DNA of 64,000 nt from assembly GCA_951812955.1 (NCBI GenBank), contig OX638340.1:3232001-3296000 (forward strand), in the 5' to 3' direction. The DNA comes from an uncultured Gemmatimonadota bacterium. GTDB lineage: Bacteria; JAAXHH01. Made by a program: the position numbers and the translations under genes. The notes below the pieces were generated by a model. It was not told the DNA's origin. It ran no database searches and was given only the letters and a program-made list of their open reading frames with translations. Shown piece after piece: positions 7,891-44,429 of the stretch. Every line of letters starts with the position of its first letter. The stretch's first letter is position 1.

Positions 7891-7972
7891 TACGAAACCG
7901 GCGATAATTCGCTTGACAAATCCGCATATGTTCATATTCTATAAGTAATTATGCAGTGTGAACATCTTATCC

Positions 7973-8010
7973 GCGCCGACGCGAAATAACAACCGAAACC
8001 GCGTCGGCGC
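7973..8010. repeat. perfect 10-bp inverted repeat (gcgccgacgc/gcgtcggcgc) with 18-nt loop between the two receptor genes
   Basis: Read directly; no T-tract follows, so it is not a canonical intrinsic terminator. Confidence 0.5.
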
Positions 8011-8059
8011 CGGACCCTGGATTCCTAAAGACTCATACATGCAGGAAGGAACCGCTTAG

Positions 8060-10834: not shown

Positions 10835-10977
10835 AAGATCCCCACCGAGCGGGTTGTTAACCTTTTGAACACGGACAGCCGTTTATGACGGCGGACGCTT
10901 CCGGCGCCCGCTCTTTGCCTTTCCGCGCGGCGCGGGTACCTGCCTCGTCCATAAAATCGAAACTTTGTCCGGGGGTT

Positions 10978-11021
10978 TTTCGTGCAATCGAGTATGGACT
11001 TTCGTGCAATCGAGTATGGGC
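10978..11021. repeat. 22-bp direct repeat x2 (tttcgtgcaatcgagtatgg[ag]c) upstream of promoter
   Basis: Two perfect-adjacent copies read directly, 60 bp upstream of the -35 box; a candidate regulator binding site. Confidence 0.5.
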
Positions 11022-11080
11022 TTGTTCCGGGCGGGCATGTTCCGGTGCGCCGAACGGTTCCCTGAAGGTCCAATATTGGC

Positions 11081-11109
11081 TTGACACCAAGTGCGGCTTC
11101 CCGTAAGAT
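11081..11109 (+). promoter_or_regulatory. sigma70-like promoter TTGACA-N17-TAAGAT
   Basis: Consensus -35 and a good -10 with 17-bp spacing, 25 bp upstream of the AAGGAG RBS and the ATG at 11135. Confidence 0.5.
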
Positions 11110-11134
11110 GTGTCCATCTTCAAGGAGACTGAAA

Positions 11135-14100
11135 ATGCCACATAGGTTGCGGTTTATTCTGGCGTTCCTGTGCCTGCTGGCCATGCCTGCGGCAGCGTTC
11201 GCCCAGGGGGATTACTTCGGGCGGAACAAGGTCCAATACCGCGACTTCAAGTGGGAAATCATCTCCACGCCCCACTTCGAAATCTACTTCTACCAGGGAG
11301 AGGAAGAGGCGGCCTACGATGCCGCCCGGATGGCGGAACGGTCCTATAACCGTCTGAGCCGCATACTGCAGCACAGGTTTAGCGACAAGATCCCAATCAT
11401 CCTGTACGCCTCCCATACCGATTTCCAGCAGACCAACGTCCTGCCGGGCTTCATCAGCGAGGGCACCGGCGGCGTGACGGAATTCAACAAGAACCGCATA
11501 CTGCTGCCCTTCACGGGATCGTACGCGGAACTGGAGCACGTACTCACCCACGAACTCGTTCACGCCTTCCAGGGTGACGCGATCTACGGCGCCGGTCCCG
11601 GCGTCTCCATCCTGAATCCCATGGCCTTCATCGCCCCGCTGTGGTTCATGGAGGGCATGGCGGAGTACCTGTCCCTTGGCCGAATCGACGCCTATACCCA
11701 CATGTGGCTGCGCGACGCGGCGCTGCAGGGATACCTCCCAGCGTCCATCCCCGCCATGGACTACAGTTTCGGCGTCTACCGGTTCGGCCAGGCGCTCTTC
11801 GCCTACATCGGCGAACGGTACGGAGATCGCAAGATCGGCGAGATTCTCCGCAAGACCGGCCGCCTGCGAAACGTGAACGAAGCCTTCCGTTCGTCCATCG
11901 GTAAGGATATCGAGAAGCTTTCCGACGAATGGAACGAGCACGTGCGCCAGACCTACCTGCCACAGATCAAGGATTACGAAAAGCCGCAGGCCTTTGCCCG
12001 GCAACTGACCGACGTCAGGGAATCCCGGGCGGGTATACATCTCGCCCCGGCGATTTCGCCGCGTGGAGACAAGCTGGTTTTCATCTCAAATAAAAGCCTG
12101 TACAACGATATCTACCTGGCCTCCGCCATCAACGGCGAGGTGATCTCCAAGCTGGTCGAGGGCGAACGCTCGGCCGATTTCGAGTCCCTCCGGTTTTTCT
12201 CCACGTCCATTTCCTGGTCGCCCGATGAGCAGTACATCGCCTTTCCGGCCAAGGTGGGGGCGCGGGACGCCTTGTATGTCATGGACGTGAGGAAGAGGAA
12301 GGTCGTCCGGCGCATCAAGGTCGATCTCGACGGCGCCACGTCGCCGAGTTGGTCGCCCGACGGCAGCCAGCTGGTCTTCGTCGGCCTGCAGGGCGGACAG
12401 TCGGACCTGTACGTGATAGACGCCACGGGAGGGAACCTGCGCGCCCTGACCCAGGACCGGTACACCGATCGTGATCCCGTGTGGTCGCCCGACGGCAGCC
12501 AGATCGCTTTTTCCACGGACCGGGGCGACGTGACCAATTTCCGGACGCTCACTTTCGGTTATCAGCAATTGGCGGTATACGACCTGGCCACGGGGGAAGT
12601 CGATAAGATCCCCGACCAGATCGGAAAAAGCATCTCGCCTCAATGGTCCGCCGATGGCGAGAAGATCGCCTTCATATCGGACCGCACCGGTATTTCCAAT
12701 ATTTTTATTCGGGACATGAAATCAGGCGAGACCTACCAGATTACCAACATCCTCACCGGGGTGACCAACGTTACGGCCGCGGGTCCCGCCATAAGCTGGG
12801 CGCAGAAGGCTGACCGGCTGGTTTTTTCTTCCCTGTCCTGGGGCGGATTCGACCTGTTCTCCATCAGCGATCCGGTGTCGCTGATGAAAGAGCCCTACGA
12901 TCACGCAAAATCGGCGACGCCAGGCGCCTCTCCCGATGCAGCGCAACTGGCCCCTCCGCTCAGGACCGAACCTTCGGAAGAAACCGCCGACGGCGAGGAC
13001 GGCGATGGTACATCGCTGGACCCGGAAGTGGCAATCGACGGTATCGAGTCCGCGTCACCGGACTCAGACGCCGACTCCGACACGAGTCAGTCGATTTCAG
13101 CGCAGGACGACGAGAAGGTCACCGAGGAGAAGGTTACCGAGGAGAAGGATACCGAGGAGAAGGTCACCGAGGGGAAGGTTACCACGATCCAGACCGTACT
13201 TACGGAATCTCCCGATACGACGTCCACCACGAATGAAACCACACCGCGGGAGGAGCCGGAGGAGACAGGAAGTTCCGATCTTCTGCAGCAGCCGGAGTTT
13301 CCTTTCGGTCCCGTCACCAGAGGAATCGGGCCGGGTGGCGAATTGCCGGATACTACCGCATGGATCGACGGCACCTTCACGAAGAAGAAATACTCCCCCG
13401 ACTTCGGCCTCGACTATATCGGCGGGAATGCGGGTTACGCCACGAACGTCGGTCTGGTGGGAAGTTCCCTTCTTTCCTTCAGCGATATCCTGAATAACCA
13501 CAAGATTCTGGTGGGAGCCAACGTATTCGGTTCCCTGACGGACGCGAACCTGCTGCTTCAGTACACCAACCTGACTCGGCGCGTCAACTGGAGCGTGGCG
13601 GCTTTTCAGTACAGCTATGATCTGTTCTACAACTACCAGAGCCCCATCCTTACCCAGGTTACGACCCAGATCAATCGCGGCGTGCATCTCTTCGTAAGCC
13701 GGCCTTTCAGCAAGTTCAGCCGCTTGGAACTGGGTATTCAGGGGGTGCACAGGTCCCGTGAGCTGGTGGATGTGAGTTTCAATTACTTCGGCATCCGCCG
13801 GAACCGGCGCGGGAGCCTGGGCAGCGTGAATTTCGTGCAGCCCACCGCCGCCCTGGTCACCGATCACACGCTCTATGGCGTTACCGGACCGATCGCCGGC
13901 GCCCGGGGCCGCATCGAAATAACCCCGACTTTCGGCGAACTCCAGTACACGCGCGCCTTCATCGATTACCGAACGTACATCAACGTAATGCAGCGGTACG
14001 CCTTTGCCTTTCGCCTGTTCGGACTGGCCAGCGAGGGGCGCGACCAGGAACTCTTTCCCTTTGGCGGGCCCTATGATTTTCGTGGCGCCAACTACTGGTC

Positions 14101-14602
14101 CGTCTGGGGGAGCAAGGTCGCGATGGTCAACGCGGAGTTCCGTTTTCCTTTAGTCGATGTGCTGGCCATGGGGTGGCCGCTGCCGCTGGTCTTCCAACAG
14201 ATCCGGGGCTCGTTGTTCATCGACGCAGGCAGTGCTTGGGACCAGAACACAAGCGCCGTGCAGGCCAATCAGTATGCGGGCTATCCCAATGTGGGAGACT
14301 TCGTCGACGGGTCGCTGATGCGGGACAACGGGCTGGGGCCCGGCATGATGGAAGAACTGTCGGGCAGTCCGGTCGCCGTGGCCTACGGCATCGGTGCGCG
14401 GGCGCGTGTGGGTTTCCTGATACTGAAGTTTGATATAGCCCGTCAGTTCGACCTCGGTAAACGGCCCTCCTGGTACAACAACGAGAACCTTCCCACTGTG
14501 CCCAGGGGACTGGAGTCCGAGTTTCCAGGCACGCGTTCGTACCGTCTGAGGAATGCGCTGAACGATACCCAGTTCTTCTTCACGATCGGCGCCGATTTCT
14601 AG
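11135..14602 (+). CDS. multidomain outer-membrane protein: N-terminal HExxH metallopeptidase-like domain + TolB/PD40-like beta-propeller repeats + acidic repeat linker + C-terminal Omp85/surface-antigen-like beta-barrel
   Basis: Signal peptide MPHRLRFILAFLCLLAMPAAAFAQ. HELVHAFQ...MEGMAEY (HExxH+E). Repeated SPxxDGxxLxF propeller motifs (SPRGDKLVFIS, SWSPDGSQLVF, VWSPDGSQIAF, QWSADGEKIAF). EEKVTEEK repeats. The C-terminus ...FFFTIGADF is typical of outer-membrane barrels. The ORF-track start at 11081 is the TTG inside the -35 box and is rejected. Confidence 0.7.
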   Translation: MPHRLRFILAFLCLLAMPAAAFAQGDYFGRNKVQYRDFKWEIISTPHFEIYFYQGEEEAAYDAARMAERSYNRLSRILQHRFSDKIPIILYASHTDFQQTNVLPGFISEGTGGVTEFNKNRILLPFTGSYAELEHVLTHELVHAFQGDAIYGAGPGVSILNPMAFIAPLWFMEGMAEYLSLGRIDAYTHMWLRDAALQGYLPASIPAMDYSFGVYRFGQALFAYIGERYGDRKIGEILRKTGRLRNVNEAFRSSIGKDIEKLSDEWNEHVRQTYLPQIKDYEKPQAFARQLTDVRESRAGIHLAPAISPRGDKLVFISNKSLYNDIYLASAINGEVISKLVEGERSADFESLRFFSTSISWSPDEQYIAFPAKVGARDALYVMDVRKRKVVRRIKVDLDGATSPSWSPDGSQLVFVGLQGGQSDLYVIDATGGNLRALTQDRYTDRDPVWSPDGSQIAFSTDRGDVTNFRTLTFGYQQLAVYDLATGEVDKIPDQIGKSISPQWSADGEKIAFISDRTGISNIFIRDMKSGETYQITNILTGVTNVTAAGPAISWAQKADRLVFSSLSWGGFDLFSISDPVSLMKEPYDHAKSATPGASPDAAQLAPPLRTEPSEETADGEDGDGTSLDPEVAIDGIESASPDSDADSDTSQSISAQDDEKVTEEKVTEEKDTEEKVTEGKVTTIQTVLTESPDTTSTTNETTPREEPEETGSSDLLQQPEFPFGPVTRGIGPGGELPDTTAWIDGTFTKKKYSPDFGLDYIGGNAGYATNVGLVGSSLLSFSDILNNHKILVGANVFGSLTDANLLLQYTNLTRRVNWSVAAFQYSYDLFYNYQSPILTQVTTQINRGVHLFVSRPFSKFSRLELGIQGVHRSRELVDVSFNYFGIRRNRRGSLGSVNFVQPTAALVTDHTLYGVTGPIAGARGRIEITPTFGELQYTRAFIDYRTYINVMQRYAFAFRLFGLASEGRDQELFPFGGPYDFRGANYWSVWGSKVAMVNAEFRFPLVDVLAMGWPLPLVFQQIRGSLFIDAGSAWDQNTSAVQANQYAGYPNVGDFVDGSLMRDNGLGPGMMEELSGSPVAVAYGIGARARVGFLILKFDIARQFDLGKRPSWYNNENLPTVPRGLESEFPGTRSYRLRNALNDTQFFFTIGADF
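13112..13186 (+). repeat. 15-bp tandem repeat x5 (gagaaggtcaccgag) in-frame, encoding (EKVTE)n linker
   Basis: Read directly inside the 11135..14602 CDS. Confidence 0.7.
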
Positions 14603-21728: not shown

Positions 21729-21760
21729 GCCGAAAGCACCACGGGTAACGTGTCGTACAG

Positions 21761-21790
21761 GGGCGGCCATGCACTGGCCGCCCTTTTTTT
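21761..21790. terminator. bidirectional rho-independent terminator (9-bp GC stem, T7 tract)
   Basis: gggcggcca-tgcac-tggccgccc followed by ttttttt. It sits between convergent pal (+) and amidohydrolase (-). Confidence 0.7.
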
Positions 21791-22682
21791 ATGCTTCCGG
21801 CAGGAACGCCTTCCAGTTTTCATAGATCATGTTGTGTATGGCCTCTTCCGGAAAAACGGGCAGGGATGTATTTTGCGTCAGGTCGTTCACCTTCCACTGT
21901 CCCGCTATGACCTGTGCCGGCGTTGCCGAGGGAAAATCGGAACCGAAGATCAACTTGTGCTCCACCCCATACTCCAGGGCGGACATGAATGCCATGTAAT
22001 GGCGCAGCGGACGGTAGTGCAGCGCCGATATGTCCGCGTAGAGGTTCGGATGCTTTCGGATCAGGACCACGCATTCGTCCTCCCACGGATGTCCCATGTG
22101 GGCAATCATCATCCGCAGGTCCGGGCACGCCACCGCGATGTCCTCGAGCTGAATAGGATTGGCCCACTTGAGGGGACCCGGCCGCACGAAGGACGTGCCC
22201 TGGTGCCAGATGACGGGGATATCCAGCGCTTCCGCTTTCCTGAACAGGGGCAGGTAAGCCGGGTCCTGGGGGTCGAAGTGCTGGTAGATCGGCGCGACCT
22301 TCAATCCACGCAGTCCGAGTTCGTTTACGTTGTATTCGAGCTGTTCGACGGCGTCCTCGTCATTGGGATCGACGGAACACCAGCCGATGAAACGGTCCGC
22401 GTTCTCCGCCACGAATCCCGCGACGAGTTCCTGGGGCACGTTCACCCCGCAATAAGGCGCCTTCAACCCGAACACCACAACCCTGTCGCAGTCCTCCGTC
22501 GCCTTAAGCAGCGTTTCGGGCGTGGAGTCGAAGGCGTTCTTGTACCGGTCTTCGTGACCCGCGTAGTAAACGTCGTCGGACAGGCGCATCTTGGCCTTCT
22601 TCGCCGCATAGGCGAATTCCACGAATTCATCGGACATGTGATCCGGGTACCACATCAGGTTGGTGTGGATGTCGACTAGCAT
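21789..22682 (-). CDS. amidohydrolase-2 family metal-dependent TIM-barrel hydrolase/decarboxylase-like protein
   Basis: MLVDIHTNLMWYPDH start (ATG at 22682, 1 nt after the upstream stop); conserved His/Asp pattern of amidohydrolase_2. The ORF-track 5' extension to 22820 overlaps the upstream gene and is rejected. Confidence 0.7.
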   Translation of the reverse strand: MLVDIHTNLMWYPDHMSDEFVEFAYAAKKAKMRLSDDVYYAGHEDRYKNAFDSTPETLLKATEDCDRVVVFGLKAPYCGVNVPQELVAGFVAENADRFIGWCSVDPNDEDAVEQLEYNVNELGLRGLKVAPIYQHFDPQDPAYLPLFRKAEALDIPVIWHQGTSFVRPGPLKWANPIQLEDIAVACPDLRMMIAHMGHPWEDECVVLIRKHPNLYADISALHYRPLRHYMAFMSALEYGVEHKLIFGSDFPSATPAQVIAGQWKVNDLTQNTSLPVFPEEAIHNMIYENWKAFLPEA

Positions 22683-24544
22683 GTCTCTTCTCCCCCGGGG
22701 TTCGTGTGGTCGTTTCCACGGCCTAAGCTCGCGCGGATCATGTCCGCGGCTTCTTCCAGATTGAAACAGCCGGGATCGACGGGAATCCCTGCCGCGTGGA
22801 CGGCGGTCATCAGATTGCATAGACCCGGCAGCCCGGGCCGCTCCGGCCTCTCGGGCCTCCCGGACCGCTCCGCCCGCCCCTGCGCGGACGCATCGACCGC
22901 GGCCTCCCGGGCGAACAGACGCTCCGGCGTGGTGTCCGCCGCAATGCCGCCGTTCTCCATGACCAGGACCCGGTCCGCCAGGCGGGAGACCAGGTCCATG
23001 TCATGGGTGATCAGGAAAAGAGTCGCCCCCCCATCCTTGCAGGCTTTGAAAATCGCCTCGACCTGTCGTACGCTTTGCGGATCGAGACCGGACGTGGGCT
23101 CGTCGAGGGCGAGGACGGATGGTTCCATGACCAGTATTCCGGCGATCGCGGCCCTGCGTTTTTCTCCGCCGCTTAGCGACAGGGGATGCCGATGCGAGAA
23201 CTGTGCGGGATCGAGGCGGACCCGTTCCAGCGCCCGGTTCACCAGGCTCTCGATTTTCGAATCTTCCGTGCCTGTTTGCCTGGGACCGAAGGCCACGTCG
23301 TCGAAAACGGTTTCCTCGAACAACTGGGCTTCCGGGAACTGGAAGACCAGCCCCACCTTCTGACGCAGCTTCCGCAGGTCGGTTTCCTTGGAGGTTACGT
23401 CCCCACCATCGACCCGAACCGTGCCCGAATCCGCTTTTAGCAGGCGGTTCATGTGCTGGATCATCGTGGACTTACCGGAACCGTTCGGTCCGGTCAGTGC
23501 GACGCAATCCCCGGGGTACACCCGCGTGGTCACACCGCGCAACGCCGAGATCGCCAGGGAAGTTCCGGGGGAATAGGTATGGCACACCCGGTCGAATTCG
23601 ATGATGGGCGGCGTGGCCGGAATCGCCCCCGCCGGCGGATCGACCGGTTTCTCAATAACCTCCGAACTTGCATCGGACGATGGCATGGTCCCCGGCATTA
23701 GGGACGGAGGCCTGGGCATCCTGCCAGAAAGCCACTGCACAAGGGAATCGGGATGGACGGTACCGGCCGGTACCGGAAGCCCGCGTGCGCGCAAGGCGTC
23801 CGACAGCCGCTCGGACAGCGGTGCCTCGAGTCCGTGTGCCGCGAGCCGTTCCGTATCCCGGAATACTTCCTCCGGCGTTCCCTCCGCTGCGACGGCCCCA
23901 TCCACCACCATCGCGATGCGGTCCATCCGGACGGCTTCCTCGGGAGACTGCGTGATGAAGACCACGCTGAGCCGGTATTCATCCACGATAGACAGGAGCA
24001 GGCCGAGGATGTCCTGCCGGTCGCCGGGGTCCAGTGACGAGGTGGGCTCGTCGCAAATGAGGTACCGGGGACGCATAGAGACCACGGAAGCGATAGCCAC
24101 GCGTTGTTTTTCGCCGCCGGACAGCCTGTGGGGCGGATAATGGCGGTACTTTTCCAGGTGGAACCGGTCGAGCGCCCACGCGACCCGCCGGTGGATCTCC
24201 CTCGATGGCAGGCCGAGGTTTTCGAGCCCGAAAGCCACCTCACGCTCGACCGTGGTCGAGACCAGCTGGTTGTCCGGGTTCTGGAAGATCATCCCGGTTC
24301 GCTGGTGGACCTGCCACGTGTTCGACGGTTCGGCCGTATCCAGGCCATCCACCAGGACCCGGCCGGACTGGGGTACGATCAACCCGTTTAAACAGCGGGC
24401 GAGGGTGCTCTTTCCCGAGCCGTTGGGGCCGATCACGGCCACGCTTTCGGATTCGCCGATTTCCAAAGACAGGCCTCGCAGCGTGGGGACCGCGTTTCCC
24501 GGCTGGACCCGGTAACTGAACGTTACGTCTTTGGCGATGATCAA
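22676..24544 (-). CDS. fused duplicated ECF-transporter ATPase (EcfA-EcfA' / CbiO-like), with ~60-aa C-terminal tail
   Basis: Two ABC ATPase cassettes: Walker A GPNGSGKST twice, LSGGEKQR / LSGGEKRR signatures, and Walker B DEPTS twice. TTG start overlaps the larC stop. Confidence 0.85.
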   Translation of the reverse strand: MIIAKDVTFSYRVQPGNAVPTLRGLSLEIGESESVAVIGPNGSGKSTLARCLNGLIVPQSGRVLVDGLDTAEPSNTWQVHQRTGMIFQNPDNQLVSTTVEREVAFGLENLGLPSREIHRRVAWALDRFHLEKYRHYPPHRLSGGEKQRVAIASVVSMRPRYLICDEPTSSLDPGDRQDILGLLLSIVDEYRLSVVFITQSPEEAVRMDRIAMVVDGAVAAEGTPEEVFRDTERLAAHGLEAPLSERLSDALRARGLPVPAGTVHPDSLVQWLSGRMPRPPSLMPGTMPSSDASSEVIEKPVDPPAGAIPATPPIIEFDRVCHTYSPGTSLAISALRGVTTRVYPGDCVALTGPNGSGKSTMIQHMNRLLKADSGTVRVDGGDVTSKETDLRKLRQKVGLVFQFPEAQLFEETVFDDVAFGPRQTGTEDSKIESLVNRALERVRLDPAQFSHRHPLSLSGGEKRRAAIAGILVMEPSVLALDEPTSGLDPQSVRQVEAIFKACKDGGATLFLITHDMDLVSRLADRVLVMENGGIAADTTPERLFAREAAVDASAQGRAERSGRPERPERPGLPGLCNLMTAVHAAGIPVDPGCFNLEEAADMIRASLGRGNDHTNPGGEETC

Positions 24545-25704
24545 GGCAGTTGATCCAGCGCCACGCGGCCGGCGGCTTCCCGGACGGCCGCATACACGTC
24601 GGCGAGCGGAACGCCGCTGCTGAGCGCAGCCTGGCGGCAGTCTTCGTATTCGGGGGTATATCGCCGGGAATCCCCGTGTTCCACGACCTTGATCCGGATC
24701 GCGCCGTAGGGGGTTTCAACGGTGGTTTCGCTACGGGGCAGCACGCTGCGTGAGACGGGGTAAGTTCTGAGGCCTATGGTCGTCGTTTCTCGGAAGATCA
24801 GCCCGGACAACCGCCCGGTCAATGCGGCCGGCGCAAGCACAGTGAGCAGTACGCCCGGCCGGTTTTTCTTCATGATCACCGGTGTAAGGAAGGCGTCCAG
24901 CGCGCCGGCTTCGAGCAGCAGGTCCACGACGTGGCCGTAGAACTGCGGATTCATGTCGTCGATCTGCGTTTCCAGGATCTGCACGGAACCTCCGCCGGCC
25001 ACTTCTCCAGCCACTTCGCCGGCCTCGCCCGTACACAGCCTGGCGACGTGCCCATCTCCCCGGTCATTGTCGTCCCCCCCGTAGCCCATGTTCCGCAGCG
25101 TGAAACCGGTTCTGATCATCGGTCCCGCCGACAAGGCGGTTAAAAAGGCGCATCCCGGCAGGTCGATGGGGGCGTGGTCGACGGGTTGTATTGCGGCGCC
25201 TCTCATCAGGGCGGCCTGGAGTGGCGGCGTGGATTCGATACCCGCGGCGAAGGGCAGTGCTACGTGGTGGAGGGATTCGATCCCGAGCAGGTGGAGGGCG
25301 TTGCAGAGGAGCAGAATGCGCAGGGCCGTGTGACGTCCGCCCAGCGCTTCCACGGTCGGCGCCTGGTCCTCCGTCCCCCGCAGTCCGTTTACGTTCTTTT
25401 CCAGGTGGTCGATCACCCTCGTGATGAGTACGGCGGCCGGTGAGTCCGCTCCGCCTCCCGGTATGGCACGGCAGGTCTCTGGCACGGACGCCTCGGCACA
25501 CGACAGCGAGGTGTACGTCACCCGGTACCCGGCGACAAGCCCCTCAGTAACGTTGATCCCGCAATCCACGCCATGATGGCTCTTCATGGCTGATTCAAGC
25601 GCGATCGGGTCCACTCCCGCGTCGATCATCGCGGCGAGCAGCATGTCCGCGGTAAGGCCGGACAACTGGTCGAAGTATCCTGCCAAAGCCATTGGACCCG
25701 CCAT
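24541..25704 (-). CDS. larC: LarC-family nickel insertion protein (DUF111; nickel-pincer nucleotide cofactor maturation)
   Basis: N-terminus (MA)LAGYFDQLSGLTADMLLAAMIDAGV is typical of LarC/DUF111, and the C-terminal LarC2-like region is present. The start may be the ATG at 25692. Confidence 0.75.
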   Translation of the reverse strand: MAGPMALAGYFDQLSGLTADMLLAAMIDAGVDPIALESAMKSHHGVDCGINVTEGLVAGYRVTYTSLSCAEASVPETCRAIPGGGADSPAAVLITRVIDHLEKNVNGLRGTEDQAPTVEALGGRHTALRILLLCNALHLLGIESLHHVALPFAAGIESTPPLQAALMRGAAIQPVDHAPIDLPGCAFLTALSAGPMIRTGFTLRNMGYGGDDNDRGDGHVARLCTGEAGEVAGEVAGGGSVQILETQIDDMNPQFYGHVVDLLLEAGALDAFLTPVIMKKNRPGVLLTVLAPAALTGRLSGLIFRETTTIGLRTYPVSRSVLPRSETTVETPYGAIRIKVVEHGDSRRYTPEYEDCRQAALSSGVPLADVYAAVREAAGRVALDQLP

Positions 25705-25706
25705 CC

Positions 25707-26459
25707 CTATTCGTGTTTCCGGTTGATGAGGCCGGCCGCGTAACCGGCGTTGAACCCGCCGTCGATATTCACCACCGTAACGCCCGAAGCGCAGCTGTTC
25801 AGCATGGCCAGGAGCGCTGCCAGCCCATTGAAACTGGCGCCATACCCGACGCTGGTCGGTACGGCTATCACCGGTCTGGAGACCATTCCGCCGACCACGC
25901 TGGGCAGGGCGCCCTCCATACCCGCCGCGACGACGAGCACCGATGCGTTCATGATGGCCTCATGGTGGGAAAGGAGCCGGTGGATGCCGGCCACGCCGAC
26001 GTCGTAGAGACACTCGACCCGATTGCCCAGTACCCGGGCCGTAACCGCGGCTTCTTCGGCCACCGGGATATCGCTCGTGCCCGCCGAGACGACCAGCACC
26101 TCCCCGATGCCCAGGTCCCGCCAGGAGTCCTGGACCACGATCGTCCGGGCCGCCTCGTGGTACTCCGCGCCGGGACACCGCGCCGCCACGGCGTCGTACA
26201 TGGCCGGAGTCGCCCGGGTGGCGAGCAGGTCGCTCCCAGACGCGACAATGCGTTCCGCGATACCGGCCACCTGGCCGTCGGTCTTCCCCGTGCAGAAGAT
26301 CACCTCGGGAAACCCGCACCGCATCGCCCTGTGGTGGTCCACCCGCGCGTAACCGAGATCCTCGAAGGGCAAGGACCGCAGCCTGCTCGACGCCTCGTCA
26401 ACCGACAGATCGCCGGCGCGGACCTGTTGGAGCAACTGCCTGATCTGCGATTCGTTCAT
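25707..26459 (-). CDS. larB: LarB (PurE-like pyridinium-3,5-biscarboxylic acid mononucleotide synthase, NPN cofactor biosynthesis)
   Basis: PurE-like C-terminal half (AGMEGALPSVVGGMVSRPVIAVPTSVGYGASFNGLAALLAMLNSC) plus the characteristic ~90-aa N-terminal extension. Confidence 0.8.
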   Translation of the reverse strand: MNESQIRQLLQQVRAGDLSVDEASSRLRSLPFEDLGYARVDHHRAMRCGFPEVIFCTGKTDGQVAGIAERIVASGSDLLATRATPAMYDAVAARCPGAEYHEAARTIVVQDSWRDLGIGEVLVVSAGTSDIPVAEEAAVTARVLGNRVECLYDVGVAGIHRLLSHHEAIMNASVLVVAAGMEGALPSVVGGMVSRPVIAVPTSVGYGASFNGLAALLAMLNSCASGVTVVNIDGGFNAGYAAGLINRKHE

Positions 26460-26526
26460 GAGTGGCTACAAGGTCTTCGGGGGCTGATTCGCTTACGGAG
26501 TTCCGCTGTGACACTCCATCTGGTCA

Positions 26527-26626
26527 TACGGTGACGCCCCTGACGGATTATATGGTGAAGGCCCTACCTGGTTGTGGTTGTACGGTGGCGCCCTTGCCTG
26601 GGTTGTGCGGTGACGCCATTGCCCCG
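26527..26626. repeat. three direct repeats of ~21 bp (t[ag]cggtg[ag]cgcc..tg.c.gg), two in tandem, in the larB upstream region
   Basis: Read directly between the larB start (26459) and the dipeptidase stop (26645); a candidate operator. Confidence 0.4.
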
Positions 26627-26644
26627 GGCCGGCGCCTGCCGCGT

Positions 26645-27928
26645 CTATTCCTCAATCGTAGTTTCTCCGTCCAGCACTTCGATGCGCGCGCCAGAGGCAT
26701 GGCGCGCCTGCTGCAGTCTTGCCGCCACTGCCTCCGCTTCACGCATCACGCGCAGCACGTTGCGCCCGAGGATCTTCAGGACATCCTCGTCCGAATAACC
26801 CCGCCGGATCAGTTCGGCCGTCAGCATGGGATAGGTGGACACATCCTCCAGTCCCACCGGGACCGTGGAAATGCCGTCGTAATCGCCGCCGATGCCGATG
26901 TAATCGATGCCGGCTACCTGCCGGATGTGATCGATATGGTCGGCCACCTGTGCCAGGGTGGCAGGCGGCGTGGGATTGGCCTCGTTCCAGGTGGCCATGC
27001 CTTCCGCCACCGATTCATCCGTACTGCCCGGCATCGCCGCGAGCCGCTCCCGCTCTTCGTTGCGCTTCACGCCGTGAAGGCGGGTTTCTTCCGAGATATA
27101 AGCAGGTACGAAGGTGACCATGACCACGCCGTTGTTATCGACCAGGCGCTCCAGGACGTCGTCGGGGACGTTGCGCACGTGGTTGCACATGGCCAGGGAC
27201 GAGGAATGGCTGAAGATGACGGGGGCCTCCGAAACGTCCAGGGCGTCCCGCATGGTCGCCGGGGAGACGTGGGACAGGTCCACCAACATGCCCAGGCGGT
27301 TCATCTCCCGGACCACCTCTTTTCCGAATTCCGTCAGGCCGTCGACCGCGACGGTGTCTGTAGCCGAATCGGCCCAGGGCACGTTGCGGCTGTGGGTCAG
27401 CGTCATGTATCCGACGCCCAGCCGGTGGAACATGCGGAGCGCGCCGAGGGAGGAGTCAATGGAATGTCCTCCTTCAATGCCCAACATGGACGCGATCCTG
27501 CCTGCCGCGAAGGCCGCTTCCACTTCGTCCGCCGTAGCGGCCAGTTGGAATGTGTCCGGATACCGGGCGGCCATCTGGTACACGATATCGATTTCCTCCA
27601 TGGTCGCGCGCACGGCTTCTTTTCCCTGCATGGAAGCGGGTACGTAAACCGACCAGAACTGGGCGCCGAGCATGCCCTCGCGCAGGCGGGGAATGTCGGT
27701 ATGCAGGTCCGGCTGCGATTCGGCGATGTCAATCGACCAGACGTCCCGGTTCGCCTTCCTGCGAATCTGCCAGGGAAGGTCGTTGTGCCCGTCGATCAGC
27801 GGGACTTTCGCGTGCAGTGCCCTGGCGCGTTCGACGGGATCTTCGGGCATGGGCTCTTCGGCCGGCGCACAGGCGGATGTCAGCGCGACGAGACATAGGC
27901 CAGTCAGCAACAGGATGAGTGAATGCAT
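26645..27928 (-). CDS. membrane dipeptidase (peptidase family M19, renal dipeptidase-like), lipoprotein
   Basis: ATG at 27928 with GGAGG RBS; signal/lipobox MHSLILLLTGLCLVALTSAC; IDGHNDLPW motif. Confidence 0.85.
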   Translation of the reverse strand: MHSLILLLTGLCLVALTSACAPAEEPMPEDPVERARALHAKVPLIDGHNDLPWQIRRKANRDVWSIDIAESQPDLHTDIPRLREGMLGAQFWSVYVPASMQGKEAVRATMEEIDIVYQMAARYPDTFQLAATADEVEAAFAAGRIASMLGIEGGHSIDSSLGALRMFHRLGVGYMTLTHSRNVPWADSATDTVAVDGLTEFGKEVVREMNRLGMLVDLSHVSPATMRDALDVSEAPVIFSHSSSLAMCNHVRNVPDDVLERLVDNNGVVMVTFVPAYISEETRLHGVKRNEERERLAAMPGSTDESVAEGMATWNEANPTPPATLAQVADHIDHIRQVAGIDYIGIGGDYDGISTVPVGLEDVSTYPMLTAELIRRGYSDEDVLKILGRNVLRVMREAEAVAARLQQARHASGARIEVLDGETTIEE

Positions 27929-28262
27929 GATTCCTCCGGGGTGAATCCAGTATATTGTAGGTCCAACTGTGTCAGGCCGAGGATTGGATATACGCACGGA
28001 AGGCTAAGAAAGCTGTATGCGCGTACCCATTCCTCGTGTAGTCAGTCTCCACTAAAATTAACGATATTCAGGTCAGGGCAAGGGATATTTGGGTGATTGC
28101 GCCGCTAGAACTCACCCATCCGGACGGTTCGTTGCACCCCATGGTACCTGGCATGATAGCGCTTTGAACCGCTGTCGAAATCTCATGTTGCCATTCCCAT
28201 GATACCGGGTTACTTTTCACTGGTCCAAGTGACCCGATACCCCCCCATTCCAAGGAGTCCGC

Positions 28263-29273
28263 ATGGCTCGATTTACCATTCTCGCGCCCGGCAATCCCGA
28301 TAATCCCGGTCCCAATCAGTATATCAGGGACGAACTGGAAACGATTGGCGCCGAGCTCAGGATACGTCCCTTCAGCACACTAGAGGAAATGCTGGAAGAG
28401 GCCCGGGACGTGGACGGCTTTACCCAGGGCGGCCTGACCTATAATCGGGAAACCGTGGAGCAACTGCCCGACCGCATACGCGTTGTGGGCGCGGGCGGGA
28501 TCGGCGTGGACTTCATCGACGTGGAAGCGGCCACGGAACGGGGGATCATCGTATACAACATCCAGGGCGTTTTCGAACGGGAGGTCGCCCAGCACGCCAT
28601 GATGCTGCTGCTTGCGTGCGCCCGCCGGCTGATGCCCATCAACCGGTCCATGATCGAAGGCACCCCCGTCAGCCGCGGCACCATTCAACCTGTATACGAG
28701 CAGACCCTCGGCCTCGTGTCCTTCGGGAATATCGGCCGGGCCATGGCGAAGATCGCCACCGGTTTCGATCTGCGTATCATTGCCTGCGATCCCTTCGTCA
28801 GCCAGGCCGCCGCCGATCCCTGGGGCGTGACGATGGTGGACCAGGAAACGCTGTTCAAGGAATCCGACTTCGTTTCGTGCCATGTACCCCTGACGCCCAG
28901 TACCCACCACATCATCGGGGAGCGGGATTTCCGGAACATGAAACCCTCCGCCTACTTCATCAACACGGGACGCGGCAAGGTCGTGGACGAAAAGGCGCTC
29001 ATCGAGGCGTTGCAGGAAGGGCGGCTCGCCGGCGCAGGGCTGGACGTGCAGGAGCAGGAGCCCCCGGCTCCGGACAACCCGCTGCGCAAGATGGATAACG
29101 TGGTCCTCACACCCCATTACGCTTCCGCGTCGGTTCGGGGTGGGATCGAGCGCGCAAGAAAAGCAGGCCAGCAACTGGTCACCATTCTCAGTGGCCGCTG
29201 GCCCGACGACGGCCTCGTAAATCCCGCCGTAAAGAAACTCGCCGCCGAAAAATGGGGCATGCCCGCAGAGTGA
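28263..29273 (+). CDS. D-isomer-specific 2-hydroxyacid dehydrogenase (NAD-binding)
   Basis: GxGxxG-type NAD site (FGNIGRAMAK) and the catalytic R/E/H arrangement of the family (…TGRG…, …TPHYAS…). Confidence 0.85.
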   Translation: MARFTILAPGNPDNPGPNQYIRDELETIGAELRIRPFSTLEEMLEEARDVDGFTQGGLTYNRETVEQLPDRIRVVGAGGIGVDFIDVEAATERGIIVYNIQGVFEREVAQHAMMLLLACARRLMPINRSMIEGTPVSRGTIQPVYEQTLGLVSFGNIGRAMAKIATGFDLRIIACDPFVSQAAADPWGVTMVDQETLFKESDFVSCHVPLTPSTHHIIGERDFRNMKPSAYFINTGRGKVVDEKALIEALQEGRLAGAGLDVQEQEPPAPDNPLRKMDNVVLTPHYASASVRGGIERARKAGQQLVTILSGRWPDDGLVNPAVKKLAAEKWGMPAE

Positions 29274-43023: not shown

Positions 43024-43557
43024 ATGAACATTACAATCCGGAAGATGACGCTGGCCGCGTTGATGATCGCGCTCATGACGCTGGCGACGCTGATCATTCG
43101 GATCCCCAATCCGGCTACGCAGGGATACATCAATCTGGGCGACGCCATGCTCATGACCATCGCCCTCCTCTTCGGCTGGCGTATCGGCGGCCTCGCGGGC
43201 GGTGTCGGTTCCGCCCTGGCAGATGCGCTGGGCGGCTACTTCATCTGGGCGCCGTGGACGCTCGTCATCAAGGGGATCGAAGGGATTCTGGTCGGAGTGA
43301 TCGCGGCATGGGGCTTCCGTGAAGGGTCCGGTCCCCGCCGGATCGCGGCCTTCGCCGCAATGGTCTCGGGCGGCGCATGGATGGTATTCGGGTACTACAT
43401 GGCCGGATCGGTACTGTTCGGAGGCGTCGCCGCGCTGACGGAGATCCCGGGGAACCTGACGCAGGCCGGGGTGGCAGTGGTGGTGGCCCTTCCCCTGTCC
43501 GTCCTATTGAGAAACGCCTTGAAACGGAGCGATTATGGAACTCTCGCACCTCGATGA
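43024..43557 (+). CDS. ECF-transporter S (substrate-capture) component, substrate unknown
   Basis: ~177-aa 5-6 TM protein with an S-component-like core (…NLGDAMLMTIALLFGWRIGGLAGGVGSALADALGGY…). Its 3' end overlaps moaC by 23 nt. Confidence 0.55.
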   Translation: MNITIRKMTLAALMIALMTLATLIIRIPNPATQGYINLGDAMLMTIALLFGWRIGGLAGGVGSALADALGGYFIWAPWTLVIKGIEGILVGVIAAWGFREGSGPRRIAAFAAMVSGGAWMVFGYYMAGSVLFGGVAALTEIPGNLTQAGVAVVVALPLSVLLRNALKRSDYGTLAPR

Positions 43558-44026
43558 AAAAGGACGTGTCCGCATGGTGGACGTGACGGAGAAACCGGTA
43601 ACGGAAAGGCGTGCGGTGGCCTACGGGGAAATAAGGGCCGCAACCGACACCATCCGGAAGATCTCCGCCGACGAAATGGGCAAGGGCGACGTGCTGACCA
43701 CCGCGAAGATCGCGGGCATCTCGGCGGCCAAGCGTACGGGCGACCTCATTCCCATGTGCCATCCCATCCCGCTGGACCACGTGGAGATCGACATTTCTCT
43801 GGACGAGGATGCGGCCAGGATCGGCATCCTTGCCACGGCGTTGTCATCGGGGAAGACCGGGGTGGAAATGGAAGCCCTGACGGCCGTCTCCGTGGCCGCC
43901 CTGACCATCTACGACATGTGCAAGGCCGTGGACCGGACCATGGAGATCGCTTCCATCCTGCTGGTGGAAAAGGAAGGCGGCCGTTCCGGAAGGTTTATTC
44001 GGCCGGGGTGGGAGGGGCCGGGGTAG
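43535..44026 (+). CDS. moaC: cyclic pyranopterin monophosphate synthase MoaC
   Basis: LSHLDEKGRVRMVDV...IPMCHPIPL...EMEALTAVSVAALTIYDM. Confidence 0.9.
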   Translation: MELSHLDEKGRVRMVDVTEKPVTERRAVAYGEIRAATDTIRKISADEMGKGDVLTTAKIAGISAAKRTGDLIPMCHPIPLDHVEIDISLDEDAARIGILATALSSGKTGVEMEALTAVSVAALTIYDMCKAVDRTMEIASILLVEKEGGRSGRFIRPGWEGPG

Positions 44027-44429
44027 TTTTCCTTATAGTGTTTTGAGACTGGCCCAGAACTATATTCGTAGCGCAGTAGTTGACTGTCTTGTTTACATAA
44101 TGAGCAAGGCACATACATGCCAATTTCGTCCTGATTGCAATAAGGATATATGATCTAAAATGTTTTCAGATAGCCCGTTCTAGGAGGTTTTCTAAACTAC
44201 CATTATCGAATTCTTAAAGATGGTTTCGCTTCCAACAGTTCGTGAGCGTATCGGATTCCAGACCTTCGACTCTTCCAACCCCCTTTAAAATCAGTCATGT
44301 ACTTCAGTTTCAAGAATTCCACTCTTTCGCCATACACATTTGGTTTTTCATAATCCCTCCAAAACATCCAACTTTCCAATTCCGACACGTCTTGATCCAG
44401 AAGATGATTTCTGGAAATATAGAGTTTGC

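What the first reader, a model, noticed from the sequence alone, without database searches (positions are those of the whole stretch)
21789..26626. larB-larC operon fused to an orphan duplicated ECF ATPase and an amidohydrolase-2 gene, without larE, larA or ECF T/S components
The genes are translationally coupled, with overlaps or gaps of 4 nt or less. The order is LarB (NPN-cofactor carboxylase/hydrolase), LarC (Ni insertase), a fused EcfA-EcfA' ATPase with a ~60-aa C-terminal tail, and an amidohydrolase_2 TIM-barrel enzyme. In characterised lar loci the partners are LarE, LarA-type racemases or epimerases, and a complete CbiMNQO-type Ni transporter. Here the ATPase has no T or S subunit nearby, although an orphan S-component sits next to moaC at 43024. 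The only candidate cofactor client in the operon is an amidohydrolase-fold enzyme. The amidohydrolase may be a new nickel-pincer-cofactor-dependent enzyme class, or the ATPase may have been co-opted for something other than transport.
Basis: partly seen in the sequence, partly recalled or inferred. Interest (0 to 1): 0.55.

Follow-up and report, generated by a model that had tools for sequence, protein, structure and literature searches.

The report
Lar operon whose LarC lost nickel site
The larB-larC-ECF ATPase-amidohydrolase gene order is real and inherited within one marine/sponge-associated bacterial clade, but the amidohydrolase is a detachable passenger, the ATPase is an ordinary fused ECF ATPase, and the real oddity is that "LarC" has lost every residue known to be needed for nickel insertion.

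Summary
The four minus-strand genes exist as described: LarB 25707-26459, a LarC homologue 24541-25704, a fused EcfA1-EcfA2 ATPase 22676-24544, and Amidohydro_2 21789-22682. The junctions are +2, -4 and -7 nt. No LarE, LarA, EcfT or CbiM is encoded in the 64 kb, and the ECF S-component at 43024-43557 is real.

Three points need correcting.
- **ATPase tail:** it is the canonical EcfA2 C-terminal helical domain plus a low-complexity insert.
- **Amidohydrolase:** its orthologues (73-81% identical) in about 55 other species have no lar gene within 10 kb. Related loci carry the lar-ATPase block without it (L087), or carry it without the block (L026).
- **LarC:** only its CTP-binding LarC2 domain is intact. 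All ten essential His and acidic LarC1 residues checked are replaced, and the domain is deleted outright in three relatives. About 75 unrelated LarCs keep them.

The conserved core is larB + LarC2-type larC + fused ECF ATPase. The larC/ATPase 4-nt overlap is kept in 27 of 28 loci.

The amidohydrolase-as-nickel-pincer-enzyme idea is not supported. A functional lar-ATPase link is plausible but unproven. The decayed LarC1 is a new variant worth testing.

The parts
26645..27997 (-). M19 membrane dipeptidase with a lipoprotein-type N-terminus. It is probably the first gene of the operon and is a variable member of the block.
   Evidence: PF01244, 409 bits. It lies 3-6 nt upstream of larB in many relatives but is absent in L028, L037, L066, L087 and L173. 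The only sigma-70-like site on this strand is at 28227-28199 (weak evidence).
26460..26644 (-). Non-coding 185-nt spacer between the M19 gene and larB
   Evidence: Sequence read. No Rfam match at E<=1. Spacer length is 3-305 nt in relatives.
25707..26459 (-). LarB, the canonical pyridinium-3,5-biscarboxylic acid mononucleotide synthase
   Evidence: NF033503 291 bits against a cutoff of 175. PDB 7mj0 243 bits, with the NSCASG cysteine motif kept. dN/dS 0.13.
25021..25704 (-). LarC1-like domain (aa 1-228). It is predicted to fold but has lost the nickel-insertion residues.
   Evidence: Against M. thermoacetica LarC: E104V, H108R, H116T, H118E, E119A, D124H, D128R, H160 deleted, E187 replaced, R71E. 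Only D15 is kept; the essential residues come from PMC13510736. No tblastn hit to MtLarC1 at E<=10. Only 32 phmmer hits among 1.84 billion representatives. dN/dS 0.32. AF2 pLDDT about 70-97.
24541..24987 (-). LarC2 domain (aa 240-387), the CTP-binding/CMP-transfer half of LarC, intact
   Evidence: NF052512 152 bits against a cutoff of 50. PDB 6bwo 99.7 bits. Foldseek 6bwq/6bwo, 40% identity. About 30 columns are invariant across clade and canonical LarCs. dN/dS 0.19.
23729..24544 (-). ATPase NBD1 (EcfA1-type). The TTG start overlaps the larC stop by 4 nt.
   Evidence: TIGR04520 514 bits. Walker A and B present, LSGGE signature, H-loop ITQ. The 4-nt overlap is kept in 27 of 28 clade loci.
23603..23728 (-). 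Pro/Ser-rich inter-domain linker of the fused ATPase
   Evidence: Lies between the two NCBIfam matches. dN/dS 0.79, close to neutral.
22676..23602 (-). ATPase NBD2 (EcfA2-type) with the canonical C-terminal helical domain and a low-complexity insert
   Evidence: TIGR04521 507 bits. Aligns to EcfA2 4mki_B residues 7-282 of 298, tail included.
21789..22682 (-). Amidohydrolase_2 TIM-barrel enzyme of the ACMSD/LigJ/resorcylate-decarboxylase type. It is very highly conserved and is a passenger gene in this operon.
   Evidence: PF04909 122 bits. AF2 pLDDT 87. Foldseek hits: LigJ, 2,6-DHB decarboxylase, LigI-like, 3irs, all at 12-19% identity. dN/dS 0.054. Separable from the lar block in both directions.
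21759..21785 (.). G+C-rich hairpin between the convergent amidohydrolase and pal genes
   Evidence: 11-bp stem found by the terminator scan. The T-run is on the + (pal) side.
43024..43557 (+). ECF transporter S-component about 19 kb away. It shows that this genome uses modular (group II-type) ECF transport.
   Evidence: PF07155 136 bits, PF12822 40 bits. It is below the NCBIfam cutoffs for any named substrate class.
28263..29273 (+). Divergently transcribed D-2-hydroxyacid dehydrogenase, the most constant outside neighbour of the operon
   Evidence: PF02826 and PF00389. Present beside the block in 27 clade loci. Rossmann motif reads SFGNIG.

Best explanation
This is a vertically inherited, clade-specific operon: (M19 dipeptidase)-larB-larC*-ecfA1A2-amidohydrolase. 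It occurs in marine, sponge- and coral-associated bacteria whose MAGs are labelled Gemmatimonadota or Latescibacterota.

Its conserved core has three genes:
- a canonical LarB;
- a LarC whose CTP-binding LarC2 domain is intact, but whose nickel-inserting LarC1 domain has lost the essential His and acidic residues, or is deleted;
- a fused group-II-type ECF ATPase translationally coupled to larC*.

Likely working, with the status of each step:
- LarB converts NaAD to the pyridinium-3,5-dicarboxylate mononucleotide. This is inferred from strong orthology.
- The LarC2 hexamer carries out the CTP-dependent activation (CMPylation) step. This is inferred from domain conservation.
- Sulfur insertion (LarE) and nickel insertion cannot be done by this locus. 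They either depend on genes elsewhere or do not occur in canonical form. The local absence and the lost residues are shown; what happens instead is unknown.
- The ATPase is the cell's ordinary ECF energiser. It would work with an EcfT and with S-components encoded elsewhere, one of them about 19 kb away. It is co-expressed with lar genes, as LarO is in Lactiplantibacillus plantarum, plausibly to couple uptake of nickel or a precursor with cofactor synthesis. This is inferred.
- The amidohydrolase and the M19 dipeptidase are passengers with independent functions.
For: **Gene identities:**

**Clade-wide conservation:** the block is present in 24 species-level genomes plus metagenome contigs, at divergences down to LarC 37% and ATPase 47% identity.

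**Junctions:** the LarC/ATPase 4-nt overlap is present in 27 of 28 loci, while the other junctions vary.

**The core persists when the flanks change:**
- L087: Nramp upstream, and an AAA_33 protein in place of the amidohydrolase.
- L171/L172: different downstream genes.

**LarC1 decay:**
- The 11 functionally tested positions read DREHHHEDDHE in about 75 of 78 full-length LarCs from unrelated metagenome loci.
- Only D15 is ever retained in about 30 clade LarCs, and the replacements differ between subclades (residue list from PMC13510736).
- LarC is LarC2-only in L171/L172 (152 aa; NF052512 144 bits) and L066.

**All parts are under purifying selection:** LarB 0.13, LarC2 0.19, the two NBDs 0.17-0.19, LarC1 0.32 (relaxed).

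**The ATPase is an ordinary family member.** No EcfT was adjacent in the three non-clade contexts sampled through the ATPase.

**The lar-ATPase adjacency recurs independently:**
- L159: a canonical LarC followed by an EcfA 57% identical to NBD1.
- L170: two LarA homologues upstream of a fused ATPase.

**The amidohydrolase is separable in both directions**.
Against: - The rest of the genome could not be read. Whether LarE, a canonical LarC1, LarA or other pincer-cofactor users, EcfT, or a second ECF ATPase exist elsewhere is unknown.
- Flanking synteny (pal/tolB downstream, the 2-hydroxyacid dehydrogenase upstream) is also conserved in most of the clade. Part of the operon's conservation may therefore be plain vertical inheritance.
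- Only four non-clade ATPase contexts could be sampled. Two of them (L169, L175) show no lar genes.
- In L170 a toxin-antitoxin-like gene pair separates the LarA genes from the ATPase.
- LarC1 is still under some constraint (dN/dS 0.32) and is predicted to fold. It may have a function that is not recognised here.
- No experiment shows what LarC2 does without LarC1.
Confidence: 0.5

Rival explanations
1. Positional accident. The four or five genes share a transcript only because of lineage history. The ATPase is the housekeeping ECF energiser with no special relation to Lar. A complete canonical LarB/LarE/LarC set, or none at all, lies elsewhere. The LarC here is a decaying relic whose LarC2 half survives for reasons unrelated to nickel.
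For: - Wider synteny (tol-pal, 2-hydroxyacid dehydrogenase) is conserved too.
- Fused ATPases of the same family stand alone in L169 and L175.
- LarC1 shows relaxed constraint and outright loss.
- The S-component elsewhere in the window indicates a general modular ECF system.
Against: - The larC/ATPase 4-nt overlap survives in 27 of 28 loci, while the neighbouring junctions and flanks change.
- LarB and LarC2 are under strong purifying selection.
- ATPase-lar adjacency recurs in two unrelated lineages. By rough estimate, chance would give about 1% per sampled locus.
Confidence: 0.27
2. One reading: the amidohydrolase-2 enzyme is a new class of nickel-pincer-cofactor-dependent enzyme served by LarB and LarC.
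For: - It is co-transcribed with a 7-nt overlap in the window and is present in 24 species of the clade.
- Non-LarA pincer enzymes exist, including a TIM-barrel AKR (PMC13524815).
Against: - There are no lar genes within 10 kb of its 73-81% identical orthologues in about 55 other species.
- The block exists without it (L087), and it exists in the same genomic slot without the block (L026).
- Its junction to the ATPase varies from -7 to +26 nt.
- Its fold and invariant D-x-H...H...D pattern match metal-dependent ACMSD/LigJ-type enzymes.
- The adjacent LarC lacks the nickel-insertion site.
Confidence: 0.04
3. A new pathway variant. LarB, LarC2 and the ABC ATPase act together as a soluble or membrane-docked machine. 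Either it replaces LarC1-dependent nickel insertion, for example by handing over imported metal directly at an ECF transporter, or it makes a non-nickel cytidine-dinucleotide derivative of the dicarboxy-pyridinium nucleotide.
For: - Translational coupling of larC* and the ATPase is strictly conserved, even where LarC is reduced to LarC2.
- The canonical nickel site is lost across the clade while LarB and LarC2 stay constrained.
- No LarE lies within 10 kb in any clade locus, whereas a LarE-like gene is adjacent in 12 of the ~79 canonical loci.
Against: - There is no precedent for an ABC ATPase in cofactor metalation.
- The ATPase keeps all features of a transporter ATPase, including the EcfA/EcfA' C-terminal dimerisation domains, and is indistinguishable from family members unlinked to lar.
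- L159 shows the same adjacency with a fully canonical LarC.
Confidence: 0.12

Closest known systems
Lactiplantibacillus plantarum lar locus (larABCDE plus larR(MN)QO; Desguin et al. 2014, from my own knowledge; pathway as summarised in PMC13510736)
   Same: LarB and a LarC homologue are encoded together with an ECF-type ATPase (LarO there).
   Different: Here there is no LarA, LarE, LarD, Lar(MN) or LarQ within 64 kb. The ATPase is a fused EcfA1-EcfA2 of the general group-II type rather than a single CbiO-type subunit. LarC lacks the LarC1 nickel-insertion residues.
larE-larB-larC clusters without larA (for example L088, GCA_054014935.1; the class mined in PMC13524815)
   Same: LarB-LarC adjacency in a genome region without LarA. 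Such clusters are the accepted sign of unknown pincer-cofactor users.
   Different: Those clusters include LarE and a LarC with the full DREHHHEDDHE residue set. This one has neither, and it carries an ATPase instead.
Group II ECF transporter energising modules (EcfA/EcfA'/EcfT; PDB 4huq, 4mki, 5d3m) and 'duplicated ATPase components' of ECF systems (Rodionov et al. 2009, from my own knowledge)
   Same: Both halves score above the EcfA1 and EcfA2 equivalog cutoffs and the canonical C-terminal helical domains are present. An S-component is encoded separately in the genome.
   Different: The two ATPases are fused by a ~40-aa Pro/Ser linker. The NBD1 H-loop His is replaced by Gln throughout the family. 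No EcfT gene is adjacent here, in the clade loci, or in the three non-clade loci sampled through the ATPase.
Stand-alone LarC2-like proteins (MK0293, PDB 3c19) and the separately encoded LarC2 reading frame of L. plantarum
   Same: The LarC2 fold can exist as its own polypeptide. Clade members L171/L172 and L066 encode LarC2 only.
   Different: In L. plantarum a frameshift joins LarC1 and LarC2, and LarC1 is catalytically essential. Here no functional LarC1 is encoded nearby.
Amidohydrolase_2 (PF04909) enzymes: LigJ hydratase, 2,6-dihydroxybenzoate decarboxylase, LigI-type lactonase, ACMSD, and uncharacterised BB4693 (3irs)
   Same: TIM-barrel fold (best TM 0.73-0.76, to 3irs). Invariant strand-1 D-x-H, strand-5 His and strand-8 Asp.
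   Different: Only 12-19% identity to any solved structure. H-x-N replaces H-x-H at strand 1. The substrate is unknown, and the family is unusually conserved across phyla (72-98%).

Membership tests
LarB (nickel-pincer cofactor carboxylase/hydrolase) | Scores above the curated equivalog model cutoff | tested here: met
   NF033503 291 bits against a cutoff of 175; 243 bits to PDB 7mj0.
LarB (nickel-pincer cofactor carboxylase/hydrolase) | Active-site cysteine motif (NSCASG region of L. plantarum LarB) | tested here: met
   MLNSCASGVTVVNIDGGF aligns with MLNSCASGITVVNIDNGF of 7mj0. That this Cys is the catalytic one is from my own knowledge.
LarC cyclometallase (nickel insertase) | LarC2 CTP-binding domain | tested here: met
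   NF052512 152 bits against a cutoff of 50; 6bwo 99.7 bits; Foldseek 6bwq, 40% identity.
LarC cyclometallase (nickel insertase) | LarC1 histidine cluster needed for activity (Mt H108, H116, H118, H160) | tested here: not met
   These positions read R, T, E and a deletion in the window. None is retained in any clade member, whereas about 75 of 78 other LarCs keep all of them (residue roles from PMC13510736).
LarC cyclometallase (nickel insertase) | LarC1 acidic pocket (Mt D15, R71, E104, E119, D124, D128, E187) | tested here: not met
   Only D15 is kept. The other positions read E, V, A, H, R and A or P. A one-residue shift of the alignment could rescue E119 at most.
Canonical nickel-pincer biosynthetic locus (LarB + LarE + LarC) | LarE sulfur insertase present with LarB and LarC | tested here: not met
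   There is no PP-loop ORF and no tblastn hit to a LarE-like protein in the 64-kb window or in any clade locus. The rest of the genome is not testable with these tools.
Group II ECF transporter energising module | EcfA1- and EcfA2-type nucleotide-binding domains with Walker A and B, signature motif and C-terminal helical domain | tested here: met
   TIGR04520 514 bits against 315 and TIGR04521 507 bits against 330. Motifs checked. The C-terminal domain aligns to 4mki_B. The NBD1 H-loop is Gln.
Group II ECF transporter energising module | An EcfT (CbiQ-family) transmembrane partner | tested here: not met
   No PF02361 protein is found among the window ORFs, nor next to the ATPase in L087, L169, L170, L171, L173 or L175. 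Whether one lies elsewhere in the genome is not testable.
Group II ECF transporter energising module | Separately encoded S-components in the same genome | tested here: met
   PF07155 S-component at 43024-43557, 136 bits.
Nickel-pincer-cofactor-dependent enzymes (LarA, AKR NphT, ornithine cyclodeaminase): candidate is the amidohydrolase | Conserved co-localisation with pincer biosynthesis genes across lineages | tested here: not met
   About 55 species have the orthologue but no lar genes within 10 kb. The two are reciprocally separable in L087 and L026.
Nickel-pincer-cofactor-dependent enzymes (LarA, AKR NphT, ornithine cyclodeaminase): candidate is the amidohydrolase | Binds the cofactor (Lys thioamide tether and/or His-Ni ligation) | not testable with these tools
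   This needs mass spectrometry of protein incubated with the cofactor, or docking. Many Lys and His residues are invariant, which is uninformative.
Amidohydrolase_2 (PF04909, ACMSD-related TIM barrels) | Pfam score above gathering cutoff and (beta/alpha)8 fold | tested here: met
   122 bits against 26.4. AF2 pLDDT 87 with an alternating strand/helix pattern. Foldseek probability 1.0 to LigJ, gamma-resorcylate decarboxylase and 3irs.
Amidohydrolase_2 (PF04909, ACMSD-related TIM barrels) | Metal and catalytic residues on strands 1, 5, 6 and 8 | tested here: inconclusive
   D4, H6, H160, H195, H198 and D249 are invariant in 30 homologues and lie on the predicted strands. No residue-level superposition was done, and strand 1 reads H-x-N rather than H-x-H.

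The most novel reading that the evidence does not exclude
In this clade the nickel-pincer pathway has been rewired. LarB and a LarC reduced to its CTP-dependent LarC2 function work with the co-translated fused ECF ATPase. Two outcomes are possible: metalation of the pincer precursor without the LarC1 nickel site, through metal hand-over at an ECF importer; or production of a different, possibly nickel-free and sulfur-free, cytidine-dinucleotide derivative of the dicarboxy-pyridinium nucleotide for an unknown user. That user could be the constantly adjacent 2-hydroxyacid dehydrogenase with its altered Rossmann motif.
Probability: 0.12. Interest if true: 0.85.

Novelty: new variant of a known kind. 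Interest (0 to 1): 0.5.

Why it matters
LarC is the only known biological cyclometallase. In 2026 its nickel-binding histidine cluster and acidic pocket were shown to be essential (PMC13510736).

This clade spans at least 24 species-level genomes. It keeps LarB and the LarC2 half under purifying selection while it has replaced or deleted the whole nickel-insertion half. That is a natural experiment with three possible readings:
- another protein inserts nickel;
- LarC2 has a job of its own;
- LarB's product has a use outside the nickel-pincer cofactor.

The finding also warns that 'LarC present' is not a safe proxy for nickel-pincer synthesis in genome mining, where LarC is used as the search anchor (PMC13524815).

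The recurrent position of a fused ECF ATPase beside lar genes, without any membrane subunits, is a second open question, smaller than the first.

The amidohydrolase idea that motivated the finding can be dropped.

Tried and rejected
1. **Riboswitch or other RNA in the 185-nt M19-larB spacer.** There is no Rfam hit at E<=1 and the spacer length varies from 3 to 305 nt in relatives.
2. **The ATPase tail as a novel domain.** It aligns to the canonical EcfA2 C-terminus.
3. **A shared ancestral sugar-acid cluster linking the amidohydrolase with the MR_MLE enolase-superfamily genes seen near it in both the clade and Planctomycetota.** The two MR_MLE sets are only 24-30% identical, so they are not orthologous.
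4. **The two small ORFs between the LarA genes and the ATPase in L170 as hidden ECF membrane subunits.** By eye they are soluble and resemble a toxin-antitoxin (DUF2283-type) pair; this is my own reading of the sequences and was not tested.
5. **An alternative conserved histidine set in LarC1.** H43/H44, H125 and H146/H147 are conserved only in the sponge-type subclade and are absent in deeper members.
6. **Looking up the window's own genome.** It is a 3,813,436-bp contig holding 100%-identical LarC and ATPase (P0121, P0241). Exact-match look-ups returned nothing, so LarE, LarA and EcfT elsewhere could not be checked.
7. **The metagenome scan with clade-type LarC.** It served as a background set rather than finding more variants.
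8. **Literature searches.** None found a description of LarC lacking LarC1 residues or of lar-linked amidohydrolases.

Full report
**1. What is in the sequence**

On the minus strand, four tightly packed genes occupy 21789-26459.

- **LarB, 25707-26459.** NF033503 scores 291 bits against a curated cutoff of 175. The protein scores 243 bits against L. plantarum LarB (PDB 7mj0) and keeps the NSCASG cysteine motif.
- **LarC homologue, 24541-25704.** PF01969 gives 208 bits. The only NCBIfam match is the LarC2 domain model NF052512, at 152 bits.
- **Duplicated ABC ATPase, 22676-24544, TTG start.** Its halves exceed the cutoffs of the EcfA1 and EcfA2 equivalogs: TIGR04520 514 bits against 315, and TIGR04521 507 bits against 330.
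- **Amidohydro_2 protein.** Its real start is ATG 22682, giving 297 aa (PF04909, 122 bits).

The junctions are a 2-nt gap, a 4-nt overlap and a 7-nt overlap.

Upstream, after a 185-nt non-coding spacer, lies an M19 dipeptidase gene at 26645-27997. In many relatives it abuts larB with a 3-6 nt gap, so it is probably the first gene of the operon. Downstream, a G+C-rich hairpin at 21759-21785 separates the operon from the convergent pal gene.

I scanned essentially every substantial ORF of the 64 kb against Pfam.
- None is a LarE-type PP-loop protein, a LarA (Lar_N), an EcfT/CbiQ or a CbiM/N.
- tblastn with a LarE-like protein and two LarA homologues taken from other loci also finds nothing.

The observation therefore stands, with corrections to the coordinates and to two of the gene descriptions.

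**2. The ATPase 'tail' and 'orphan' status**

The C-terminal half aligns end to end with EcfA2 of PDB 4mki, chain residues 7-282 of 298. The stretch LPGLCNLMTAVHAAGIPVDPGCFNLEEAADMIRA matches the canonical C-terminal helical domain. The extra length comes from a ~15-aa low-complexity insert and a short trailing peptide. These segments evolve almost neutrally: dN/dS is 0.79 for the linker and 0.53 for the tail, against 0.17-0.19 for the two nucleotide-binding domains.

Fused EcfA1-EcfA2 proteins of 560-650 aa are common in Latescibacterota, Zixibacteria and Planctomycetota, at 41-48% identity to this one. Throughout the family they share the same motif peculiarities: Gln instead of the H-loop His in NBD1, and LSGGE signatures.

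In every context I could inspect, the gene has no EcfT next to it. This holds for L087, L169, L170, L171/172, L173/174 and L175. Standing apart from the membrane subunits therefore appears to be usual for this family, on the contexts sampled, not a peculiarity of this locus.

**3. The amidohydrolase is a separable passenger**

The protein is extraordinarily conserved. The 120 best hits are 72-97% identical, and dN/dS is 0.054.

A scan of one genome per species returned 80 loci, and tblastn of the operon proteins against them gave a clear split.
- The larB-larC-ATPase-amidohydrolase block occurs only where the amidohydrolase is at least 81% identical. That is 24 species-level genomes, from marine, sponge, coral, lake and groundwater MAGs labelled Gemmatimonadota, Latescibacterota or simply 'bacterium'.
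- About 55 other species have a 73-81% identical orthologue with no lar gene and no related ATPase within 10 kb. They are Planctomycetota, other Latescibacterota and Gemmatimonadota, Verrucomicrobiales, Acidobacteria and Poribacteria.
- In those genomes the commonest neighbours are an MFS transporter directly upstream (23 of 57 loci) and an enolase-superfamily gene.

The separation goes both ways inside the wider clade.
- In L087, larB-larC-ATPase is followed by an unrelated 535-aa AAA_33 protein and then pal.
- In L026, an 85%-identical amidohydrolase sits before pal but directly after aroA.

The ATPase/amidohydrolase junction is also variable, from -7 to +26 nt.

The AlphaFold model has pLDDT 87. 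It matches LigJ hydratase, 2,6-dihydroxybenzoate decarboxylase, LigI-type lactonases, ACMSD and the uncharacterised BB4693 (3irs, TM 0.73-0.76), all at 12-19% identity. D4, H6, H160, H195, H198 and D249 are invariant. Nothing points to a pincer cofactor.

The known non-LarA users are an aldo-keto reductase family and an ornithine cyclodeaminase (PMC13524815). An amidohydrolase would be new, but the evidence here is against it.

**4. The unexpected part: LarC has lost its nickel half**

A 2026 cryo-EM and mutagenesis study of M. thermoacetica LarC tested single alanine substitutions (PMC13510736).
- H108A, H118A and H160A nearly abolish activity.
- H116A reduces activity.
- D15A, R71A, E104A, E119A, D124A, D128A and E187A, in the acidic pocket, markedly reduce activity.

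In the pairwise alignment and in the multiple alignments, the window protein reads R, T, E, A, H and R at H108, H116, H118, E119, D124 and D128. It has an 8-residue deletion that removes H160, V at E104, E at R71, and A or P at E187. Only D15 remains.

I extracted LarC from every locus held and tabulated the 11 positions.
- About 75 of 78 full-length LarCs from unrelated metagenome contigs read DREHHHEDDHE.
- About 30 clade LarCs keep none of them apart from D15 in some, and the replacement residues differ between subclades. No alternative conserved site has therefore appeared.
- Three members encode only LarC2: L171/L172 at 152 aa (NF052512, 144 bits) and L066.

On its own, the window's LarC1 half gives no tblastn hit to M. 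thermoacetica LarC1 at E<=10. It finds only 32 proteins among 1.84 billion cluster representatives.

The LarC1 half is not a pseudogene. dN/dS is 0.32, relaxed compared with 0.19 for LarC2, and AlphaFold folds it with pLDDT about 70-97 from a clade-only alignment.

LarC2 is intact: about 30 columns are invariant across clade and canonical sequences, and Foldseek finds 40% identity to 6bwq. By these criteria the gene is not a canonical cyclometallase. I did not find this variant in the literature searches.

**5. The conserved core and the lar-ATPase link**

Across the clade the proteins diverge to LarB 70%, LarC 37%, ATPase 47% and amidohydrolase 81% identity. The larC stop and the ATPase start overlap by 4 nt in 27 of 28 evaluable loci, while all other junctions vary.

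The trio survives three kinds of change:
- a change of upstream neighbour (Nramp in L087);
- a change of downstream neighbours (methyltransferase and PhyH in L171/172);
- deletion of LarC1.

The nearest canonical LarC context (L088) is larE-like/larB/larC without an ATPase. Among the ~79 canonical loci, LarB is adjacent in roughly 35 and a LarE-like gene in 12. No clade locus has a LarE-like gene within 10 kb.

Two unrelated contexts repeat the lar-ATPase adjacency.
- In L159 a fully canonical LarC is followed, after 68 nt, by an EcfA 57% identical to NBD1. The contig ends inside that gene.
- In L170, from an 8.08-Mb planctomycete chromosome, two LarA homologues, an aldolase and an alcohol dehydrogenase lie on the same strand as a fused ATPase. 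By my own reading (not tested), a toxin-antitoxin-like pair lies between them.

Two other family members, L169 and L175, have no lar genes nearby. By rough estimate, the chance of adjacency is about 1% per locus. The recurrence is therefore suggestive, not proven.

**6. Interpretation**

*Best explanation (confidence about 0.5).* This is a clade-specific operon whose functional core is LarB, LarC2-type LarC and the ECF energising ATPase.
- LarB and LarC2 presumably carry out their known half-reactions: carboxylation and hydrolysis of NaAD, and CTP-dependent activation.
- Sulfur and nickel insertion are not encoded here.
- The ATPase is the cell's ordinary ECF energiser, co-expressed with lar genes in the way LarO is in L. 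plantarum.
- The amidohydrolase and the M19 dipeptidase are passengers.

*Rivals.*
- A purely positional operon with a relic LarC: 0.27.
- A rewired pathway in which LarC2 and the ATPase cooperate, or which makes a non-nickel product: 0.12.
- The amidohydrolase-client idea: 0.04.

*Main limitation.* The rest of the genome could not be read. The source is an unnamed 3.81-Mb MAG contig, and exact look-ups failed. LarE, a separate LarC1, LarA or AKR users, EcfT and other EcfA genes elsewhere remain untested.

**7. Verdict**

- The gene order is real and conserved.
- The amidohydrolase hypothesis and the 'tail' are not supported.
- The 'orphan' ATPase is typical of its family, but it is linked to lar genes more often than chance suggests.
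- The notable finding is a LarC lineage that has lost the nickel-insertion machinery while keeping LarB and LarC2 under selection.

I rate this a new variant of a known kind, of moderate interest. It matters mainly because it gives specialists a natural LarC1-less system to test, and because it cautions against using LarC presence as proof of nickel-pincer synthesis.

Noticed in passing
window 51499-63977: A low-GC (46-52%) island that looks like a defence island. It holds a 1630-aa NACHT STAND NTPase (54983-59875, -), a type ISP restriction-modification enzyme (61488-63977, -, runs off the window) and two NTP_transf_2 proteins (51499-52716, 53844-54257).
   Followed up: partly
window 44026-45762: A low-GC (47%) stretch between moaC and argR with no convincing ORFs. 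It holds a tRNA-like gene (44895-44968, -) that ARAGORN reads with a four-base anticodon 'cacg' and cannot assign. Rfam scores it as tRNA at only 37.7 bits.
   Followed up: partly
window 43024-44026: The ECF S-component gene overlaps the start of moaC (43535) by 23 nt. The pairing of a vitamin-type S-component with molybdenum-cofactor biosynthesis is unexplained. The S-component falls below the NCBIfam cutoffs for every named substrate class.
   Followed up: partly
window 23729-24544 and homologues P0241-P0360: The whole fused EcfA1-EcfA2 family has Gln instead of the H-loop His in NBD1 ('ITQ'), a normal His in NBD2, and LSGGE signatures. This implies built-in asymmetric ATP sites.
   Followed up: partly
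window 28263-29273: The divergently transcribed D-2-hydroxyacid dehydrogenase is the most constant outside neighbour of the operon, present in 27 clade loci. Its Rossmann motif reads SFGNIG (Ser for the first Gly of GxGxxG) in 25 of them, with the catalytic Arg, Glu and His kept. NAD-type oxidoreductases beside lar genes can be pincer-cofactor users (PMC13524815), so it is a better client candidate than the amidohydrolase.
   Followed up: partly
L170 518-7692 (8.08-Mb planctomycete chromosome): One-strand cluster of two near-identical LarA homologues, an HpcH/HpaI aldolase, an Fe-alcohol dehydrogenase, two small soluble proteins that by eye resemble a toxin-antitoxin (DUF2283-type) pair, and a fused ECF ATPase.
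   Followed up: partly
L087 249-7566: In this deeper clade member an Nramp metal transporter is divergent from larB. A 535-aa AAA_33 kinase-like protein with no NCBIfam name takes the place of the amidohydrolase.
   Followed up: no
window 21789-22682 and P0001-P0120: The amidohydrolase family is 72-98% identical across at least six phyla of mostly marine MAGs. That is far more conserved than the neighbouring genes, which suggests strong constraint or recent horizontal spread. An MFS transporter lies directly upstream in 23 of 57 non-clade loci. The substrate is unknown.
   Followed up: partly
window 24988-25020 (LarC aa 229-239): The LarC inter-domain linker carries a short tandem repeat, GEVAGEVAG. 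It is the only segment AlphaFold leaves disordered (pLDDT 41). Linker length varies widely in relatives, with LarC ranging from 375 to 440 aa.
   Followed up: no
window 5056-14602: Two paralogous ~930-aa TonB-dependent receptors with CarboxypepD_reg domains lie upstream of the tol-pal cluster. They are followed by an 1173-aa protein combining peptidase-MA, PD40/DPPIV beta-propeller and Omp85 domains.
   Followed up: no
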